A stretch of DNA of 64,000 nt from the NCBI GenBank assembly GCA_900128585.1, contig LT642152.1, positions 1 through 64,000 on the forward strand. Reading direction: 5' to 3'. Under the pieces are notes generated by a model. It had not been told where the DNA came from. It did no database searches and worked only from the letters and a program-made list of their open reading frames with translations. The position numbers were made by a program, and so were the translations under genes. This document shows, piece by piece, positions 4,820 through 62,317 of this stretch. The stretch is from Stramenopiles sp. TOSAG23-3. Lineage: Eukaryota. Every line of letters begins with the position of its first letter. The stretch's first letter is position 1.

Positions 4820-4937
4820 ATACGAGGTACGTAAGTTAATATTAAATATGTTTATTGAAAAAGCAAACACAGGGTATATAAATTGCTACATCCATAAAAT
4901 AGACACCTACTCCAGACGAACGAGCTGGTCAGAAAAT

Positions 4938-5348
4938 ATGTCCACACGGGGAGAGGAATTACCAAATGCATCTATAAAACTCGAGGACGGCACGCTGGCG
5001 AGAAAGGGTTGCCTGTTTTCCTTCCAAAATTACGAGGGTGACGAGGACAATAGCCTGTATCTTGCAGCAATCACAGACAAGGGTTACTTGAAGTTCCTAA
5101 CCGAGGGGGCTTTCGGCCTTGACATAAAGAGTCAGTTCCACGGCGAGACACATGCGGAACTTTACCTTCCTCTGTCCGTCGCTGCGGAGTCTCTGGTGTG
5201 CTACAGCAGAGGGGACTTGGTAAATACGACACGGATCACGGAGAAGAGGTGTCTTCCAAAAGGATACTGCTGTCCATTCCGCCTCCGCTACTGTCATTGC
5301 TATGCCTCTCGAAGGCGACAAGGGCATACTCAGGCAATTTTATCCTAA
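4938..5348 (+). other. Orphan ORF or possible decayed gene fragment
   Basis: ATG 4938 (MSTRGEELPNASIKLEDG...). GC content is coding-like compared with the spacers; no recognisable family. Confidence 0.25.
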
Positions 5349-16040: not shown

Positions 16041-18176
16041 ATGGGAAGGTTTTTTGCAACTTACAGCATCGTCAGCCTTGCCCTGACCGTAGGGGTCAGC
16101 ATGTACGCGTGGCAAACGAGGATACAGTTTTATCCCATGGTCATTTTTCTATGCACTTCAAAGTTTTCGGTCGCGGTCTTGTGCAACCTAGCGATCTGCG
16201 CGACCATTTTGACATTCAAGCTCGTGCGCTCCGTGTTTCTCGGCAAGCTCCGGGACGCAGAGTACGAGCTGCTCGTGGAAAACTCAAAGTACGCGTTCAC
16301 CGAGACCTGCCTTGCCCTAACATATTTTCGGGATGAGTTGAATCTGAAAGTGGCCGGGTTGTTCATTGCCTTGTTGGTCAGCAAAATATTCCATTGGCTG
16401 TGCAAGGAGCGCCTGGCGTATATGGAAAGCACGCAGAACACGCCGGTTCTCAAGCACATTCGACTGTTCGCGCTGAAGTTCCTGCTGCTTACAGTGGACA
16501 TGGCCTTTGTCCATGTCGCGGTGAATTCGATCAGGGCGCACGGCCCCTCCGTGTGGCTGCTTTTTGGGTTTGAGTTTCTGTGTCTGGTCATCAACATCTA
16601 CTCCATCTTTGCCCGGTACGGCCTTCACCTGATAGATTTAGCGACGGAGAACGGGTGGGCCAACAAAGAGACGTACGTGTTCTACCTGGAACTCGTCGCC
16701 GAGGTGGCCCGTGTATTTGTATATTTAGCATTCTTTTTGATCCTGTTCACATACTACGGGTTTCCCATCCACATCTTGCGCGATTTGTACTTGTCGGTGA
16801 GAATGTTGATCCGGCGCATCCACGAGTTTTGCAACGCCAGGTCGATCACCTCGAGGATGGACGAGCTGTTCCCGGACGCAACCGAGGAGGAGTTGGCCGA
16901 CGGAGTCCTTTGCATCGTATGCCGAGAAACGATGCAGTACGGCACCGACCATGTAAAGAAGCTGGAGTGCGGGCACCTCTTTCACTTCCGGTGCCTGCGT
17001 GGGTGGCTCGAGCGCCAGCAGGCGTGCCCGACGTGCCGCCATCCCATCACCATTCGGCGCGGGGCCACCCCCGACGGGACCGTTCGAGTGGGCCAAGAGG
17101 ACGGCGCCGAGGTCGGGGCCGGTAACGATGGCGCCGATGCGATCGAGGGGGACCTTGTCGAAGACGAAGGCGAGGCGGAGAATGCCCCCGCGGCCCCCGC
17201 GGCCCCGGACATCCTGGACGGGCTGAGGCAGGCCGTGCCCCGACCTGCCGCCCGTGTCCTCCCACCAGACGGCGAAAGGATGGGGGGCCGGAACGACAGT
17301 GGCACGGCCCGCGCCGCCCCGCAAACGCCTGGAAGTGCCACGGCGCCGAACGCGAGGGTTGCCGCGCCAGTGCCACCGCCGTTCCCACCCCCCGGGATGG
17401 ATATGCCGACGGCGCCGCAGCTGTTGTCGCCAGCGCCTCCGCTTTCGATGGGCTTTCCGCCGATGCCGGGCCAGTTCCAGATGCCCAACGGTATGATGAT
17501 GCCGCCACAACCCCCACAGCCCCCCCCTGGCATGCAGATGCCTGGAATGCCAATGATGCCGCCGTTCTCCCCGGCTGGAATGGCCTCGCCCGTCCCTCCG
17601 TTTTCGCCTTTTGGGTTCCCGGGACAGATGCCGTTTCCAATGGGGCCATTTGGGTCGCCGGTGGGCGGCCAAGTGCAGCAACCAGAGGCCTCGCCCATGT
17701 TGCAACGGAGCATGTCTGCGCCCGTGGCCGGGGACCGCAGCTCACAGCTGCGTGCGATTCAATCGCAAATTGAAGTTCTTGAGGCGCATTTGAAGAGCTT
17801 GTCCCCTGCGAGCAGAAAAAGGGGGAAACCGGCCGCTTCCCGGGGCAGCGCAAGCCCGGTGCTCCGCCGGGCCGAGTCTTCCCCTGAGGCACGTAGCATC
17901 GGAACGATATCACCAGGGGCCATTCCCCAGAGCAAGCTCTTTGCCGCACCACCGATCGACGATGGCGAGCAAAAGGTAGGAGAGGTGGAATCGGATGTTC
18001 CAGAGATCAACATCGACGAAGAGCGAAGGCGCAGAGAAGAAAGAGAGAAGGAAGACACAAGCCCACATGCACTTCGACGACGAATGGCTGCCCAAGCTGC
18101 ATTAAGACGGTTATCAAGTAGTGAATCCATGGATTCTTCTGGGCAAAAAAGGCAACAAATTGATGAAGATGAATAA
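16041..18176 (+). CDS. HRD1: ERAD E3 ubiquitin ligase HRD1/synoviolin
   Basis: Multi-TM N-terminus (FLGKLRDAEYE, TETCLALTYFRDE, KIFHWL, FGFEF, PIHILRDLY), RING-H2 CIVCRE...CGHLFHFRCLRGWLERQQACPTCR and a Pro-rich tail. Confidence 0.95.
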   Translation: MGRFFATYSIVSLALTVGVSMYAWQTRIQFYPMVIFLCTSKFSVAVLCNLAICATILTFKLVRSVFLGKLRDAEYELLVENSKYAFTETCLALTYFRDELNLKVAGLFIALLVSKIFHWLCKERLAYMESTQNTPVLKHIRLFALKFLLLTVDMAFVHVAVNSIRAHGPSVWLLFGFEFLCLVINIYSIFARYGLHLIDLATENGWANKETYVFYLELVAEVARVFVYLAFFLILFTYYGFPIHILRDLYLSVRMLIRRIHEFCNARSITSRMDELFPDATEEELADGVLCIVCRETMQYGTDHVKKLECGHLFHFRCLRGWLERQQACPTCRHPITIRRGATPDGTVRVGQEDGAEVGAGNDGADAIEGDLVEDEGEAENAPAAPAAPDILDGLRQAVPRPAARVLPPDGERMGGRNDSGTARAAPQTPGSATAPNARVAAPVPPPFPPPGMDMPTAPQLLSPAPPLSMGFPPMPGQFQMPNGMMMPPQPPQPPPGMQMPGMPMMPPFSPAGMASPVPPFSPFGFPGQMPFPMGPFGSPVGGQVQQPEASPMLQRSMSAPVAGDRSSQLRAIQSQIEVLEAHLKSLSPASRKRGKPAASRGSASPVLRRAESSPEARSIGTISPGAIPQSKLFAAPPIDDGEQKVGEVESDVPEINIDEERRRREEREKEDTSPHALRRRMAAQAALRRLSSSESMDSSGQKRQQIDEDE

Positions 18177-19116
18177 TTTTTACGAAATGAAGAAAGAAAT
18201 TAGTGCCGACGATTAAATCAAACTGAATGTTTTCGTATCTTCGCTACTTCTTCTCTTGAAAATAATATAATAATAAAATAAAAAAATCACTTCTGTCCTA
18301 TTTACCTGTATTAAAATCACAACAATGGTGTGTTGATATATTTTCTAGTATTTTCTAGTATTTTTCTTTCCTAATAAATTTATTATTTATTATCTTCTTC
18401 TTTTTCTATAATTATAAAACCCTATTCTATAACCTGAATTAATAATAAACCTCAAAACACGAACCTCGCCATCCATTCATTAGCTTATACCAAGGTACTA
18501 CCATAATAATAAAGAAAAAAAAAAGAGATCATCCAATTTCTTATATTTGTATTCTATTACTTCTTTTAAGTATAAATATCATCGAATATAAATAGGAATA
18601 AAAAATAATAATTTAAATATATAAATAATAAGAAGTTTTTAATTCTTTATCATTCCTTTTGCTGTGTACCTTCTATTCTGTTTCTTTTCTACCGCCACCA
18701 CCCACCCAACTACTTGGTATACCAACCGACCAGACCCACCCGACAGAGATCCTGTTTTGCTTTTAGTGGAAAGCAATTGTTTCAATTACTATTTCGCTTA
18801 TGTATACAGAGGAATCGGTTCCAGATAGTCTAACGCCGTTGTAGATTTTGTCCCAATCAAACCAAGTCCGGACCATATCATTGCATATACAATGTGTAAC
18901 CAGTAGTTGCCAACTGCGACGCGTTGTACGAGCAGCTTTCATGCTCGTTCATTGCTGTATGCACACTTCTGGTACGTGCCGCCGTATAGACGTGCGTGCA
19001 ACTTTAAAAACAAAAATCTAGCTGTGACTAGTATTTCGCGCGATCAATGTAAGTTTATTTTGCGTTTTCTGCACCCCCAGACTCCGTTCGAAAGGAAGCC
19101 CAAACTTGGTTTTTTC

Positions 19117-19214
19117 GACAGTGATGACCTATAGAATACCACGTATTCTTACACTACAGACTAGAGTTTCTGAGGGATTAGATACCCTTTTGAAGATAAT
19201 GTTAGTACTTAGTC
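19117..19214 (+). ncRNA. Box C/D snoRNA, snR78/SNORD52-like (LSU Um2421 equivalent)
   Basis: Box C GTGATGA 19121. Guide CAGACTAGAGT 19157-19167 is complementary to LSU ACUCUAGUCUG, followed by D' CTGA 19170. C' TGAAGA 19191, D-like CTTA 19208, GAC/GTC terminal stem. Confidence 0.8.
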
Positions 19215-19299
19215 ACAAAACCTAGAGTTTCCTTTCTTGTGTCTCTCTCTCTCAATTTCACGCCTTGGTGGGACGTCATTCGCTTGCAGTCGATTGATA

Positions 19300-19495
19300 G
19301 TTGCCACCGTGCACACACGCGGGCCTAGTTGTTCATATCGTTCAACGTTATGAGGTAAATCCGCTGCTAAAGGGCAACATAAAGAAGCAGTTGATAGCGC
19401 CTTCGGGTGCTCCTGTCTTCATCTCCATATTCCTTGTCATGCCGCAGCTACTATGTAGCAATTATCGGTCGTGGAAAACCATGGAGGGAACATCT
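19300..19495 (+). ncRNA. snR30/U17 (SNORA73)-like H/ACA snoRNA
   Basis: 5' hairpin GTTGCC/GGCAAC, H box AAAGAA 19381, internal UUCG hairpin. 3' hairpin with CTCC/GGAG stem, m1 ATATTCCT 19427, m2 AAACCAT 19476 and ACA 19490. Confidence 0.85.
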
Positions 19496-19650
19496 TATCG
19501 TGCCTTTTCACACGCCATTTTTTTGCAACAACCCATCACTAACAAACAACGTTTATCGTAGACGATGATGCGCAAGACCTAAGAAGGGTTCTCAAGCGTC
19601 GCACCCCGGACCGACTCCCGGTGCGCTCACAAGTAAGTACTCGCCACCTA

Positions 19651-19673
19651 CCCCCCCCCCCCCCCCCCCCCCC
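19651..19673. repeat. Poly-C tract in a host-gene intron
   Basis: Run of 23 C. Confidence 0.9.
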
Positions 19674-19705
19674 AATTGTGTTCGTTGATCGGAAATATGT
19701 TAGTC

Positions 19706-19782
19706 CTCAATGATCGATTAAATGGAAATCCAATACTTATCTTTTGTGATGATACAAAATACGAGCTTTTTAAATCTGAGAG
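19706..19782 (+). ncRNA. Box C/D snoRNA, snR47/SNORD36-like (18S Am619 equivalent)
   Basis: Guide TACGAGCTTTTTAA 19760-19773 is complementary to 18S UUAAAAAGCUCGUA, then CTGA 19776. GTGATGA at 19746; CTC/GAG terminal stem. The 5' boundary is uncertain. Confidence 0.85.
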
Positions 19783-19864
19783 AATGAACCATCCTTTCGC
19801 CCGAGTGCAAGCGAGGCACGACGAAACACACACACACACACACCGACAGGCGATATTCGAATCG

Positions 19865-20018
19865 CCGCCCTCTACCATTGTTCAAGTGCTCGATCATTCA
19901 ATTTGTACCACTTTCAAAATGAGGGCTAGAGCAACGGAGTGATTACCACGCGTTGGACCTTGGTAGCTTGAAACAGACTTTTGAATGATCTTTCGAGTTG
20001 CTTCCGGCGCAGACATTT
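19865..20018 (+). ncRNA. Box H/ACA snoRNA, target not assigned
   Basis: Hairpin 1 closed by GCCCTC/GAGGGC, H box AGAGCA 19928. Hairpin 2 has GCGTTGGA/TCCGGCGC and GGTAGCTTGAAA/TTTCGAGTTGCT stems; ACA at 20013. Confidence 0.7.
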
Positions 20019-20228
20019 TTTCTTCTTCTTCCCCACTTTTTACTCATCGAAGTTTTTTTAGACCTGTTGAACTAACCCGTCGACCGACATTTTTTGCTCA
20101 GTACGCAGCGGCACGCATGCATGCGTTTTGAACCCTGGGTTCAGGAACCAGACTGAATACTACCGTAAGTAAAGGAAGACTTGTCTTGAAACCCACCCTC
20201 CGGAGAGCGGGACCCCCACTTTGACTTG

Positions 20229-20313
20229 TCTGTGATGACACCTAATCAATTGAAGATGACGCAGATTAAAGTCCTGTGTCTCACAACGTGTTGTTTGATC
20301 GATAGGCCTGAGA
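20229..20313 (+). ncRNA. Box C/D snoRNA with an LSU guide to GCCUAUCGAUC
   Basis: Box C GTGATGA 20232, box D CTGA 20308, preceded by the 11-nt guide GATCGATAGGC. Confidence 0.75.
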
Positions 20314-20407
20314 ATAATTCAAATCCGAAAGACAAAGTGCCCCCCCTCCGCTCCACTCTCGAACCCCGTTTCTGTCCTTTTCGGACGTTTGGTGTTGCTC
20401 TTTTCCT

Positions 20408-20492
20408 TGAATGATGACTTATGCTTCGGGCGGACTTAGTTTGATACCAAACGTTGCTGATACGAAGCTGTGTACAAACTGTTTTTCTGACT
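20408..20492 (+). ncRNA. Box C/D snoRNA, snR70/SNORD43-like (18S Cm1639 equivalent)
   Basis: Box C ATGATGA 20411; guide CGGGCGG 20427-20433 with D' CTTA; second element TGTGTACAAA 20469-20478. Both are complementary to 18S UUUGUACACACCGCCCG. Box D CTGA 20487. Confidence 0.8.
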
Positions 20493-21376
20493 TTCGATTA
20501 GGAGCACCCACCGTAGACGACCGATCTGTCTTCCTATGGCATGGCATTCTATCTTTCTGTAAAAAATACCATTTGAGCTGTTCTAACAACATATGCAACT
20601 TTTCACAGTGTACGAAGTCAAAGGAATCCATTCATATGTACATGTGTTTTACATTTTAACGTGGGTTTTATCCCACAAATACTTTTTTCTTATAAAAAAT
20701 ATTACGTAGCACTTTATAATAAAAAAACAAAAACTCAATTATTATGATCTAATATGTTATATCTAATTTTTAGGTTTTTTTTGGTGAGAGTAGATCGATC
20801 ATTTACTGTACGATGTAGTAATTATTAGATACTTGGATAGACTACGGTACTACTACAAAAAATAAAAAAAAATAATTGGAAGAAAGAAGGAAAGGAACTG
20901 ATTGTTGTTCGTTATAATATAATAGAGTCAATTCCAGTTAAATTATACATATTGTAGTCTACATATAGTACATATAGTACTTGTATGTTTTAGGATGATT
21001 ATTAAAGCTTTAAGAGCCACACGATTTGCCTTTTCTGAGAAATGTTACAATGCTGTGGTCTGTTGTGGATTACATATACACAATACCATTAAGCAAGTAA
21101 AGGCAGGGGGGGGAAAATTTTCTTACTTTGGTGTTTTTGGACACAGAGAAGAAAGGAATGGCTTGTCCTTCTTTTGGGAAAAGTATGGTGCGAAGTTTCG
21201 AAACGGAACCAGGAGCAGCTCCGTCTTTTGGTTTACATGCTTAGAGGTGTACATCTGTATTCAATGATAAAAAATCATTATGTTTTTTTACGAATTAAGA
21301 GACAGTAACGCACGATGAATCGAGCTTTTAGCAAAGTTCCCCGCGCACTCTCTCCACGCACAAGAGGGTGGTGAAC

Positions 21377-61500: not shown

Positions 61501-62317
61501 TCACCTAACCAAATACTTGGCGATGTGCCGTTCCATTTCAGCGCGTTCCTCTTCGGTTAAGAATTTTGTGCACGATTTGCTGCAAGTGGCTGGGTCCGAA
61601 AACAATTGAAAAAGCTCATCTGGCTGTTCCGTTACATTGAAATTTCCCCAGCGCCAGGTAACTCCGGTCGGCCCATCTTTAAATAAAATGTCATGCCCCC
61701 AGTTCTTATAAAGTTTGTCGTAATGTGACACTGTCCAATATTGAAACCCTTGGGGACCATCCCATTGATCACACATGACACTGTTGGTAGCGATCATTTA
61801 AAGAGAAGAATGGTTAGTCGCTGAAGAGTGAGTTTACCGCATTGTTTCTGCGAATATACTATACTTACTTGTTTCCATACATGTCTGGCGCCGAAATATT
61901 CGTGCCTTTGTACGTGTAGGCTTTCAAGAATGCTGGAGGGACTGCCCCGACATCTTTTACAAACCGGCAGCAATCTATATCATGCTTTGGTTGGTGCAAG
62001 TAAATACCAGAATTAATAAACAAAAGTTTGCACGGTATTGCCTTCAGGGCAGACTTGATATTTACGAAAGGCAGGCAGCGGTCGACGTAGTCCACCAGCT
62101 GCGCTTGGGTAGAGTTTGGTGCTCCTGACAAATACTTGTAATAAAACATAGACGAGGCATTTTTAATGCTTGGAACGTTTCCATAGAGAGTGAAAGGGGA
62201 GGAAAACTGCGTCGGCCAGACAGGGCATTCTGTGTTGTTAATGCAGTTTGGGTTTGCCTCCACGTTTAGCGTGGTGGCAATGAATACCAACAAGGCCAAT
62301 GAACACGTCGGACGCAT
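61501..62317 (-). CDS. Two-exon secreted protein (242 aa; ependymin-related/At4g14100-like), intron 61781-61868
   Basis: GTAAGT donor 61868, GACTAAC branch, CAG acceptor 61781. Splicing joins YGN-N-VMCDQW in frame. Signal peptide, PVWPTQF, DCC...VGAVPPAFL. Confidence 0.85.

What the first reader, a model, noticed from the sequence alone, without database searches (positions are those of the whole stretch)
19049..20608. Hidden snoRNA host gene: three introns, two snoRNAs each, in an almost intronless gene neighbourhood
Seen: three GTAAGT...CTAAC...YAG introns separated by ~55-70-nt exons with no long ORF. Intron 1 holds snR78-like and snR30-like, intron 2 snR47/U36-like and an H/ACA, intron 3 an LSU guide and snR70/U43-like. 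Only one protein-coding intron is evident in the whole window. Known: non-coding intronic hosts exist in animals and fungi, and intronic polycistronic clusters in plants. Inference: introns are retained here for snoRNA biogenesis, and dicistronic introns imply endonucleolytic separation.
Basis: partly seen in the sequence, partly recalled or inferred. Interest (0 to 1): 0.72.

Follow-up and report, generated by a model that had tools for sequence, protein, structure and literature searches.

The report
Six-snoRNA host gene with three introns
In an intron-poor marine protist, a short gene with no protein-coding exons has three introns that each appear to carry two small nucleolar RNAs, an arrangement conserved in relatives but of a kind already known from plants, green algae and fungi.

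Summary
Window 19049-20608 holds three tandem GTAAGT...CTAAC...YAG units of 513, 469 and 444 nt, separated by 71- and 63-nt stretches without an ORF.

Each unit holds two snoRNA-like genes:
- Intron 1: an snR78-like C/D RNA and a U17/snR30-like H/ACA RNA.
- Intron 2: a SNORD36/snR47-like C/D RNA, which passes Rfam's cut-off, and a second H/ACA RNA.
- Intron 3: a C/D RNA with an LSU guide and a C/D RNA complementary to the 18S decoding-centre strand.

The strongest evidence is comparative. A metagenome scan found three further contig lineages (L067, L069, L126/L129) with the same snoRNAs in the same order. Each has three GTAAGT and matching CTAAC motifs in the same places. The snoRNA blocks are 67-85% identical, apart from the second H/ACA in L069/L126. 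Exons and spacers are not conserved, and in L069/L126 the exons are about 10 and 20 nt.

Splicing itself was not seen: the metatranscriptome contigs of four runs cover the snoRNA regions but show no junctions. Whether the introns belong to an independent non-coding gene or to the 3' UTR of the upstream Hrd1-like gene remains open.

The arrangement is a new member of a known kind, so interest is moderate.

The parts
18993..19048 (+). Putative first exon and start region of the host transcript. The 5' end is unknown. TGCGTGCAAC (18993-19002) is shared with relative L067 upstream of its first donor.
   Evidence: No RNA evidence for a start. An AT-rich block with several AATAAA-like signals (18200-18660) separates it from the Hrd1-like ORF that ends at 18176.
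19049..19561 (+). Intron 1 (513 nt): GTAAGT, ACTAAC at 19538-43, TAG.
   Evidence: A GTAAGT and a CTAAC sit at the equivalent places in L067, L069 and L126.
19117..19214 (+). Box C/D snoRNA 1, snR78-like. C box GTGATGA 19121-27. Guide CAGACTAGAGTTT upstream of CTGA 19170-73, probably the D' box. C'-like TGAAGA 19191-96. Conserved ACTTAG 19207-12, possibly a non-canonical terminal D box (CUUA).
   Evidence: Rfam snR78 22 bits, below the cut-off of 48, but the guide plus box is identical to the family consensus. 10-11 bp to LSU GACTCTAGTC in proxy rDNAs. 67-74% identical to relatives. The flanking stem changes GAC/GTC to GGC/GCC.
19260..19495 (+). U17/snR30 (SNORA73)-like H/ACA RNA. H box region ACATAAAGA 19377-85. 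m1 ATATTCC 19427-33. m2 AAACCAT 19476-82. ACA 19490-92.
   Evidence: Rfam SNORA73 32.6 bits (cut-off 74), E 8.7e-6 over 2 kb. Sub-threshold hits in 3 of 3 relatives. 11 of 56 pairs change on both sides and 0 of 500 shuffles reach that. Motifs match PMC7601244 Table 1.
19562..19632 (+). Exon 2 (71 nt), non-coding.
   Evidence: 16-43% identity to relatives, i.e. not conserved. About 10 nt in L069/L126.
19633..20101 (+). Intron 2 (469 nt): GTAAGT, ACTAAC at 20071-76, CAG. Contains a 23-nt poly-C run at 19651-73.
   Evidence: Equivalent signals in the relatives.
19703..19786 (+). Box C/D snoRNA 2, SNORD36/snR47-like. Degenerate C box ATGATCG 19710-16. D' guide GGAAATCCAAT with D' CTTA 19736-39. 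C' GTGATGA 19746-52. D guide TACGAGCTTTTTAA 19760-73. D box CTGA 19776-79.
   Evidence: Rfam SNORD36 37.4 bits against a cut-off of 30. 14 Watson-Crick bp to 18S TTAAAAAGCTCGTA in 7 of 11 proxy rDNAs. The terminal stem covaries, CUC/GAG against CAC/GUG.
19867..20018 (+). H/ACA snoRNA 2: hairpin, AGAGCA (19928-33), hairpin, ACA (20013-15). 5' pocket strands AUUGUUC and UCAAAA.
   Evidence: Folds. 7 of 35 pairs change on both sides between the window and L067 while the pocket strands stay identical. 73% identical to L067 but 30-35% to L069/L126. No Rfam hit. Target not identified.
20102..20164 (+). Exon 3 (63 nt), non-coding.
   Evidence: About 20 nt in L069/L126.
20165..20608 (+). Intron 3 (444 nt): GTAAGT, TCTAAC at 20582-87, CAG.
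   Evidence: GTAAGT at the equivalent place in all three relatives. CTAAC seen in L067 and L069; L126 ends before that point.
20228..20316 (+). Box C/D snoRNA 3. C box GTGATGA 20232-38. Conserved internal block CAGATTAAAGTCCTGTGT 20262-79, role unknown. D guide GATCGATAGGC 20297-307. D box CTGA 20308-11.
   Evidence: 11 Watson-Crick bp from guide position 1 to LSU GCCTATCGATC in proxies L052 and L056; shuffled guides reach 11 or more in 8 of 100. Guide plus D box are invariant in 4 of 4 sequences. No Rfam hit.
20407..20494 (+). Box C/D snoRNA 4, snR70/U43-like by target. C box ATGATGA 20411-17. CGGGCGGA 20427-34 followed by CTTA 20435-38 (D'). C'-like TGATAC 20458-63. TGTGTACAAA 20469-78. D box CTGA 20487-90.
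   Evidence: The two elements are complementary to adjacent 18S stretches, TTTGTACACA|CCGCCCG. Both are conserved in 4 of 4 sequences while the bases between them vary. No credible Rfam hit.
20609..20740 (+). Last exon. The 3' end is unknown. AATAAA at 20718-23 at the start of an AT-rich block.
   Evidence: Not conserved in the relatives.

Best explanation
This is a snoRNA host locus of an uncultured marine stramenopile. A Pol II transcript, most likely an independent non-coding one starting shortly upstream of 19049, carries three spliceosomal introns. Each intron holds two snoRNAs.

Proposed pathway, all inferred:
- Splicing releases the three introns.
- Debranching and 5'-3' and 3'-5' exonucleolytic trimming define the outer ends, each protected by an assembled snoRNP.
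- At least one endonucleolytic cut in each 45-90-nt unstructured, low-complexity spacer separates the two snoRNAs.
- The short spliced exon RNA has no function of its own.

Products:
- Methylation guides for LSU (the snR78-type site and a GCCUAUCGAUC site).
- Methylation guides for SSU (the A619-type site plus the adjacent G, and the decoding-centre C).
- One pseudouridylation guide of unknown target.
- The essential 18S-processing RNA U17/snR30.

Shown: the anatomy, family identity for three of the six, conservation of the snoRNAs and of the splice signals, non-conservation of the exons, and the presence of the snoRNA regions in RNA libraries.

Inferred: splicing, the order of processing steps, the endonucleolytic cut, and the independence of the host from the upstream gene.
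For: (1) Three complete splice-signal sets sit at 19049-20608. The one frame-verified coding intron of the window uses the same GTAAGT and GACTAAC with CAG.

(2) Of 120 loci from the metagenome scan, 4 (L067, L069, L126, L129; three lineages) hold colinear homologues of the snoRNAs. On the host strand, all three GTAAGT of the L067 locus and all three of L126 sit at the expected places. So do three of the five in L069.

(3) snoRNA blocks are 67-85% identical to the relatives, against 9-55% for exons, flanks and spacers. The second H/ACA in L069/L126 is the exception. Exon 2 is 71 nt here and about 10 nt in L069/L126.

(4) Rfam: SNORD36 is above its cut-off here and in 3 of 3 relatives. SNORA73 is sub-threshold in all four.

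(5) Covariation: 11 of 56 pairs for U17 and 7 of 35 for the second H/ACA.

(6) Guide complementarity to proxy eukaryotic rRNAs.

(7) RNA-library contigs from 3 runs of 3 studies cover the snoRNA-bearing parts of each intron. One 423-nt contig (19110-19532) spans both snoRNAs of intron 1.

(8) The spliced product has no ORF.

(9) An AT-rich block with AATAAA-like signals lies between the Hrd1-like stop and the locus.
Against: - No spliced junction was found in the contigs of the four RNA runs laid. One run (X2) has an unspliced 907-nt contig across intron 2, exon 3, intron 3 and exon 4; this could be DNA or precursor.
- The transcript's start and end are unknown.
- The Hrd1-like gene lies upstream on the same strand here and in L069, so 3'-UTR introns are not excluded.
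- The organism's own rRNA was not available. Guide tests used rDNAs of unrelated eukaryotes. Apart from the 14-bp SNORD36 guide, they do not exceed shuffled-guide controls on their own.
- U17 and snR78 do not reach Rfam's cut-offs.
- The target of the second H/ACA is unknown, and that RNA is replaced by unrelated sequence in L069/L126.
- snoRNA 1 has no canonical terminal D box if it extends to 19214.
- The 3' splice sites in L067 (introns 1 and 3) and L069 (intron 3) could not be placed.
Confidence: 0.72

Rival explanations
1. The three introns lie in a long 3' UTR of the upstream Hrd1/synoviolin-like gene (16041-18176, same strand). The host is then a protein-coding mRNA, possibly coupled to nonsense-mediated decay, and not a separate non-coding gene.
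For: The genes are on the same strand and adjacent. A homologue of the Hrd1 C-terminus (47% identity over 62 aa) lies upstream of the homologous locus in L069, in the same orientation. No transcription start was mapped.
Against: There are 870 nt between the stop codon and the first donor, in a genome whose intergenic gaps are mostly a few hundred nt. An AT-rich block with several AATAAA-like signals begins about 100 nt after the stop. A short motif (TGCGTGCAAC) 50-75 nt upstream of the first donor is shared with L067. No ORF of 70 aa or more lies on the host strand in the 644 nt upstream of the first donor in L067.
Confidence: 0.15
2. This is an unspliced polycistronic snoRNA cluster processed only by endo- and exonucleases. 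The splice-like motifs are unused relics or chance.
For: No junction was seen. One unspliced contig exists in run X2. Polycistronic, splicing-independent clusters are common in yeast, plants and Euglena (PMC10557570, PMC7671301).
Against: Perfect GTAAGT and CTAAC are kept at equivalent places in three related lineages while the surrounding sequence is unalignable. This requires selection on the signals. Degenerated signals are what fungal 'de-intronised' clusters show (PMC3596301).
Confidence: 0.06
3. The short exons encode a micropeptide, and the snoRNAs are passengers of a coding gene.
For: Exon 2 starts with ACGATGATG..., giving a 5-codon ORF.
Against: The longest ATG-started ORF in the spliced product is 5 codons. 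Exon lengths and sequences are not conserved: 71 against about 10 nt, and 63 against about 20 nt.
Confidence: 0.02

Closest known systems
Fungal non-coding polycistronic snoRNA host genes (homologues of the snR72-78, snR57-55-61 and snR41-70-51 clusters in Candida, Yarrowia, Euascomycetes)
   Same: Non-coding host. The snoRNAs sit in introns with strong yeast-type signals. Internal exons are small or even absent. The genomes are intron-poor. Related snoRNA families (snR78, snR70) are involved. (PMC3596301: passages and section 8 read.)
   Different: The passages I read of PMC3596301 speak of single 'snoRNA-associated introns' (e.g. the snR72- and snR78-associated introns) and of juxtaposed introns. 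That fungal hosts carry one snoRNA per intron is my reading plus recall, not a statement I saw. Here there are two per intron, C/D and H/ACA are mixed, U17/snR30 is included, and the lineage is a stramenopile, not a fungus.
Intronic snoRNA gene clusters of plants and green algae (rice, Chlamydomonas, O. tauri clusters 3 and 5)
   Same: Several snoRNAs sit in one intron and are presumed to be released from a polycistronic intronic precursor by endonucleolytic cuts plus trimming. (PMC7671301: passages read. Chen et al. 2008 seen only as a title in its reference list; the paper is not held.)
   Different: In O. tauri, the 72 single intronic snoRNAs are said to be hosted in protein-coding genes. 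What hosts the two intronic clusters is not stated in the passages I saw. Here the host appears non-coding, with three successive dicistronic introns. I did not see the supplementary figure and table of PMC7671301 that detail those clusters.
Animal non-coding snoRNA host genes (UHG, GAS5 and other SNHGs)
   Same: Multi-intron transcripts whose exons are poorly conserved and non-coding, with the snoRNAs in the introns. (Recalled; SNHGs are named in the abstract of PMC7154078 in the listing.)
   Different: These carry one snoRNA per intron. 5'TOP promoters and NMD coupling are known there and were not tested here.
S. pombe snoU14/mamRNA mixed precursor with a Pac1 (RNase III) site across the exon junction
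   Same: Co-hosted snoRNAs whose processing order depends on splicing. (PMC12508059, abstract read.)
   Different: That pair is intron plus downstream exon, with a junction hairpin. Here both snoRNAs are intronic, and neither spacers nor exons fold better than shuffles (z from -1.2 to +2.0).
Introns preserved for stable intronic RNAs in Cyanidioschyzon merolae
   Same: An intron-poor genome in which many surviving introns encode stable RNAs. (bioRxiv 10.1101/2025.12.01.691491, abstract read.)
   Different: A different lineage. According to the abstract, 11 of the 23 stable intronic RNAs there are a new class of ncRNA. The hosts were not compared.

Membership tests
SNORD36 / snR47 (Rfam RF00049) | Covariance-model score at or above the curated cut-off. 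| tested here: met
   37.4 bits against 30 in the window. 46.3, 38.2 and 32.3 bits in L067, L069 and L126.
SNORD36 / snR47 (Rfam RF00049) | Guide upstream of box D complementary to 18S at the A619 (yeast) or A668 (human) site. | tested here: met
   14 Watson-Crick bp to TTAAAAAGCTCGTA in 7 of 11 proxy rDNAs, and 13 bp plus one G-U in an eighth. The fifth-base rule points to SSU position 619 in L058. Shuffled guides reach at most 13, once in 100. The yeast and human site numbers are recalled. The organism's own 18S was not available.
SNORD36 / snR47 (Rfam RF00049) | Canonical C (RUGAUGA) and D (CUGA) boxes with a terminal stem. | tested here: inconclusive
   D is CTGA. The C box is degenerate (ATGATCG here, TGAGGA and TGATAA in relatives). 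The terminal stem is present and covaries.
U17 / snR30 (SNORA73, RF00045) | Covariance-model score at or above the curated cut-off. | tested here: not met
   32.6 bits against 74 (E 8.7e-6 over 2 kb). 31.3, 30.9 and 17.3 bits in the relatives.
U17 / snR30 (SNORA73, RF00045) | m1 (AUAUUCCUN) and m2 (AAACCAU) motifs in the 3' hairpin, with H and ACA boxes. | tested here: met
   AUAUUCCUU at 19427-35 and AAACCAU at 19476-82, flanking the internal loop of the 3' hairpin. These are the same as entries in Table 1 of PMC7601244. ACA is 3 nt from the conserved end. The structure is 85% paired across 4 sequences, with 11 of 56 pairs changed on both sides.
U17 / snR30 (SNORA73, RF00045) | m1 and m2 pair with rm1 and rm2 in ES6 of the organism's 18S. 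| not testable with these tools
   The organism's own rRNA is not held. A crude motif search in proxy SSUs found no nearby pair.
snR78 (RF01176) | Covariance-model score at or above the curated cut-off. | tested here: not met
   22.0 bits against 48, E 2.3.
snR78 (RF01176) | Guide ACUAGAGUUU followed by CUGA, pairing with LSU GACUCUAGU. | tested here: met
   The guide plus box is identical to the model consensus. 10-11 bp to LSU in L051, L052, L053 and L058. Not above shuffled-guide controls on its own. Conserved in 4 of 4 sequences.
snR70 / SNORD43 | Box-adjacent guide placing the fifth base on the decoding-centre C of 18S CCGCCCG. | tested here: inconclusive
   There are only 7 bp (CGGGCGG) before a non-canonical D' (CUUA), plus a 10-bp accessory match to the adjacent UUUGUACACA. 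Both elements are invariant in 4 of 4 sequences. No Rfam hit at E up to 10. The equivalence to yeast C1639 is recalled.
Non-coding intronic snoRNA host gene | snoRNAs lie inside spliceosomal introns that are actually removed. | tested here: inconclusive
   Signals are complete and conserved in three related lineages. No spliced junction was found in the contigs of 4 RNA runs.
Non-coding intronic snoRNA host gene | Exons lack a conserved ORF. | tested here: met
   The longest ATG-started ORF is 5 codons. Exon identity to relatives is 16-43%, and exon lengths are 71 and 63 nt against about 10 and 20 nt.
Non-coding intronic snoRNA host gene | It has its own promoter and transcription start. | not testable with these tools
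   No read-level data. Only indirect hints.
Intronic snoRNA cluster (plant and green-algal type) | Two or more snoRNAs within one intron. | tested here: met
   Two per intron in all three introns here and in L067, and in introns 1 and 3 of L069/L126.
Intronic snoRNA cluster (plant and green-algal type) | Release by endonucleolytic cleavage between the snoRNAs. | not testable with these tools
   Inferred only. Spacers are unstructured, not conserved and of low complexity.

The most novel reading that the evidence does not exclude
The locus and its relatives may show how dicistronic introns arise and persist. A lineage of uncultured marine stramenopiles keeps a fixed six-snoRNA, three-intron 'operon' whose exons are under no constraint and erode: 71 and 63 nt here, about 10 and 20 nt in L069/L126. 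Complete loss of such micro-exons would fuse neighbouring one-snoRNA introns into two-snoRNA introns. The present two-per-intron state would then be the product of an earlier round of this fusion. Its processing would depend on a spacer endonuclease that recognises unstructured C-, CT- or CA-rich tracts, not RNase III hairpins.
Probability: 0.25. Interest if true: 0.5.

Novelty: new member of a known kind. Interest (0 to 1): 0.4.

Why it matters
snoRNA gene organisation in stramenopiles is essentially undescribed. Two full-text searches gave no dedicated study among the papers listed: 'snoRNA' with 'stramenopile' found 57 papers, 20 listed, and 'snoRNA' with 'Phytophthora' and 'intron' found 153 papers, 10 listed.

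This locus gives a ready-made annotation of six snoRNAs, including the essential U17/snR30, for an uncultured marine lineage. It adds an independent case of introns surviving in an intron-poor genome because they carry snoRNAs.

It also combines two known designs: the fungal and animal non-coding host, and the plant-type multi-snoRNA intron. That makes it a natural system for asking how two snoRNAs are separated after splicing. None of this changes current concepts.

Tried and rejected
- **RNA contigs.** No joints were found in 4 runs. No contig of X1, X9 or X10 covers the exons or splice sites.
- **Unanchored complementarity scans** of the snoRNAs against proxy rDNAs. Shuffled and control sequence gave as many or longer matches, so these were dropped in favour of the box-anchored scan.
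- **H/ACA-2 pocket target search.** The best hit was 10 Watson-Crick of 12 pairs, within the shuffled range. A recalled candidate LSU site (UUGA-U-A-GAACAAUG) is only partly present in the proxies.
- **U17 rm1/rm2 search** in proxy SSUs: nothing usable.
- **Rfam on narrow slices** for the two intron-3 snoRNAs and H/ACA-2: only noise-level hits.
- **Conserved elements without an rRNA partner.** No convincing partner was found for the CD3 block 20262-79 or for the CD1 3' extension 19174-19212.
- **Spacer and exon folding.** z-scores run from -1.2 to +2.0, so there is no RNase III-like hairpin signal.
- **Scan of viral contigs** with an 18S primer: 0 hits.
- **Bacterial-type promoter and terminator scan.** Not applicable to a eukaryote and at chance level.
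- **Other candidate introns.** 4831-5135 (+) and 16064-15981 (-) match the intron pattern. The first overlaps an ORF that starts near 4938. The second is antisense to the start of the Hrd1-like ORF. I treat both as spurious or undecided.
- **Early guess of the organism.** A prasinophyte green alga was abandoned, where the nearest named homologues are oomycetes at 39-54% identity.


Full report
**Observation.** Reading window 18700-21000 confirms the stated anatomy to the base.
- GTAAGT sits at 19049, 19633 and 20165.
- ACTAAC, ACTAAC and TCTAAC sit at 19538, 20071 and 20582.
- TAG, CAG and CAG end at 19561, 20101 and 20608.
- This gives units of 513, 469 and 444 nt, separated by 71 and 63 nt.

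GTAAGT alone is not enriched: 24 copies on both strands of 64 kb. The full donor-branch-acceptor pattern matches only 8 times in the window. Three matches are this locus. One is a coding intron at 61868-61781 (-), where removing 88 nt joins two open frames...PDMYGNK to CVMCDQWDG.... The other four lie inside or antisense to ORFs.

The neighbourhood is gene-dense and almost intronless. 21 non-nested uninterrupted ORFs of at least 200 aa cover about 40.6 of 64 kb (my sum over). A loose survey for frame-restoring introns gave only the one convincing case.

**Organism.** No genome is held. The upstream gene encodes an Hrd1/synoviolin-like RING ligase. Its nearest named homologues are oomycetes at 39-54% identity, with unnamed environmental proteins at 53-88%. 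Parts of the locus occur in marine metatranscriptomes and metagenomes of 12 studies. I read it as an uncultured marine stramenopile. This is an inference.

**The six RNAs.**

*snoRNA 1 (intron 1).* It has a C box (19121-27) and the guide CAGACUAGAGUUU before CUGA (19170-73). Guide plus box are identical to the Rfam snR78 consensus, although the score is below the cut-off (22 against 48 bits). It pairs with LSU GACUCUAGUC in proxy rDNAs over 10-11 bp. Conservation in the relatives runs on to ACTTAG at 19207-12, and a flanking stem changes from GAC/GTC to GGC/GCC. CUGA is therefore probably the D' box, and the terminal box may be a non-canonical CUUA. This is unresolved.

*U17/snR30-like RNA (intron 1).* It scores 32.6 bits with SNORA73 (cut-off 74; E 8.7e-6 in 2 kb). 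It carries AUAUUCCUU and AAACCAU on the two sides of the internal loop of its 3' hairpin. These are the m1 and m2 motifs listed for U17/snR30 across eukaryotes (PMC7601244, Table 1, passages read). Across four homologues, a hairpin-H-hairpin-ACA structure is 85% paired. 11 of 56 pairs change on both sides, 0 of 500 shuffles reach that, and slid controls give 0-3 pairs. The caveat is that the structure came from the window's own fold.

*SNORD36-like RNA (intron 2).* It passes Rfam's cut-off at 37.4 against 30 bits, and also in 3 of 3 relatives.
- Its D guide forms 14 Watson-Crick pairs with 18S UUAAAAAGCUCGUA in 7 of 11 proxy rDNAs. The methylated base is at SSU position 619 of L058, which is the yeast snR47 site as I recall it.
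- Its D' guide (GGAAAUCCAAU before CUUA) pairs with the adjoining GUUGGAUUUC. One search used a box start one base off. Corrected by hand, the target is the first G of GG, 15 nt downstream. This matches the recalled spacing of human 18S Am668 and Gm683.

*Second H/ACA RNA (intron 2, 19867-20018).* It folds as hairpin-AGAGCA-hairpin-ACA. Against L067, 7 of 35 pairs change on both sides while the pocket strands AUUGUUC and UCAAAA stay identical. No target could be assigned.

*snoRNA 3 (intron 3).* Its guide GAUCGAUAGGC directly before box D gives 11 pairs with LSU GCCUAUCGAUC in L052 and L056. Shuffled guides reach 11 or more in 8 of 100.

*snoRNA 4 (intron 3).* It has CGGGCGGA before a CUUA D' box, and UGUGUACAAA further 3'. 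These are complementary to the contiguous 18S stretch UUUGUACACA|CCGCCCG. The fifth-base rule points to the C that I recall as yeast Cm1639 (snR70) or E. coli C1402. The second element lies too far from box D to guide methylation, so it looks like accessory pairing.

Rfam gives nothing credible for snoRNAs 3 and 4 or for the second H/ACA.

**How the proxy rRNAs were obtained.** With no genome held, I scanned the prokaryote genome collection with a universal eukaryotic 18S primer. This recovered contaminating eukaryotic rDNA contigs. One complete unit (L051) was annotated by Rfam. Ten more were placed by BLAST. Together they fall into six divergence groups. None is the organism's own rRNA.

**Relatives.** One metagenome scan used a pattern made of the two SNORD36 guides and box D. 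It returned 120 loci.
- BLAST of the locus against them found four (L067, L069, L126, L129; L129 is contained in L126) with colinear matches to snoRNA 1, U17, SNORD36, snoRNA 3 and snoRNA 4. L067 also matches the second H/ACA.
- In each, GTAAGT precedes snoRNA 1, SNORD36 and snoRNA 3, and CTAAC follows the second RNA of each pair where the contig reaches that far.
- In a four-way alignment the snoRNA blocks are 67-85% identical to the window. Exons, intron flanks and spacers are 9-55% identical, essentially unalignable.
- Exon 2 and exon 3 are about 10 and 20 nt in L069/L126. In L067 some 3' splice sites cannot be placed.

Selection has therefore kept the snoRNAs and the splice signals, and nothing else. 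This is the main support for real introns and for a non-coding host.

In L069/L126 the second half of intron 2 holds unrelated sequence with a 14-bp hairpin instead of the H/ACA. More distant loci from the same scan (L102, L085, L099) show an snR78-like guide and SNORD36 in neighbouring introns, one per intron.

**RNA evidence.** Contigs of three RNA runs from three studies cover 19110-19532, 19684-20064 and 20247-20542. These are the snoRNA-bearing parts of each intron, and one contig spans both RNAs of intron 1. Run X2 has an unspliced contig at 19926-20836. No joint was reported. Contigs cannot show ends or absence, so this shows only that these sequences occur in RNA libraries.

**Host transcript.** The approximate spliced product has no ATG-started ORF beyond 5 codons. 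The Hrd1-like ORF ends 870 nt upstream on the same strand, and an Hrd1 C-terminal homologue also precedes the locus in L069. So 3'-UTR introns of that gene are a live alternative. Against it stand an AT-rich block with several AATAAA-like signals soon after the stop and a short motif shared with L067 50-75 nt before the first donor.

**Mechanism.** The general pathway is: splicing, debranching, 5' and 3' exonucleolytic trimming up to the snoRNP, and cleavage between the units of polycistronic precursors. It is taken from the review PMC10557570 (passages read). With two snoRNPs on one intron, trimming from the ends cannot remove the spacer, so a cut within it is required. This is an inference. 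The spacers (about 45-90 nt) fold no better than shuffles (z 2.04, -0.33 and 0.08), are not conserved, and contain (CT)n, (CA)n and C runs. Nothing points to RNase III-type hairpins.

**Comparison with what is known.**
- Non-coding snoRNA hosts with strong splice signals and small or absent internal exons are described in fungi (PMC3596301).
- Intronic multi-snoRNA clusters are described in O. tauri and, as cited there, in Chlamydomonas and plants (PMC7671301).
- Preservation of introns for stable RNAs in an intron-poor alga is proposed in a 2025 preprint (abstract).
- Splicing-dependent ordering of co-hosted snoRNAs is shown in S. pombe (abstract).

This locus combines these known features in a lineage for which I found no snoRNA study among the papers listed.

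**Verdict.** The locus is real, well conserved and correctly read by the first stage. It is a new member of a known kind, with splicing and host independence still to be shown.

Noticed in passing
window 61781-61868 (-): An 88-nt protein-coding intron, GTAAGT...GACTAAC...CAG, whose removal joins two open frames. It is the only convincing coding intron in the window and uses the same signals as the host gene.
   Followed up: yes
window 19651-19673: A 23-nt poly-C run near the 5' end of intron 2. Other low-complexity tracts, (CT)n at about 19242-53 and (CA)n at about 19825-43, lie in the spacers between paired snoRNAs. The read tool skipped the poly-C region as a repeat.
   Followed up: partly
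L069:2056-2262 and the matching part of L126: In these relatives, the place of the second H/ACA in intron 2 is taken by about 200 nt of unrelated sequence. It includes a 14-bp hairpin and has no H or ACA boxes that I could see. Its nature is unknown.
   Followed up: partly
L102, L085, L099 (metagenome loci): More distant eukaryotes have an snR78-type guide and a SNORD36-type snoRNA in neighbouring introns, one snoRNA per intron. In L099 and L085 these sit within multi-intron arrays of C/D snoRNAs. This suggests an old or recurrent linkage of the two families.
   Followed up: partly
window 19174-19187: The conserved loop of snoRNA 1 reads GGGAUUAGAUACCC. As I recall, this is the sense sequence of the bacterial and organellar 16S '785-806' primer region. 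It is sense, not antisense, and no eukaryotic rRNA complement was found. I take it as coincidence or a structural element.
   Followed up: partly
window 20262-20279: An 18-nt block (CAGAUUAAAGUCCUGUGU) inside snoRNA 3 is nearly invariant in 4 of 4 homologues. It sits next to no recognisable D' box and has no convincing rRNA complement in the proxies.
   Followed up: partly
G003 (genome behind L043), many contigs: One prokaryote MAG in the genome collection holds dozens of contigs with eukaryotic rDNA from several different eukaryotes (33 matches). This is bin contamination, which happened to be useful here as a source of proxy rRNAs.
   Followed up: no
window 16041-18176 (+) and L069:274-459: The Hrd1/synoviolin-like gene is the upstream neighbour of the snoRNA locus both here and in L069, so this micro-synteny is conserved.
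   Followed up: partly
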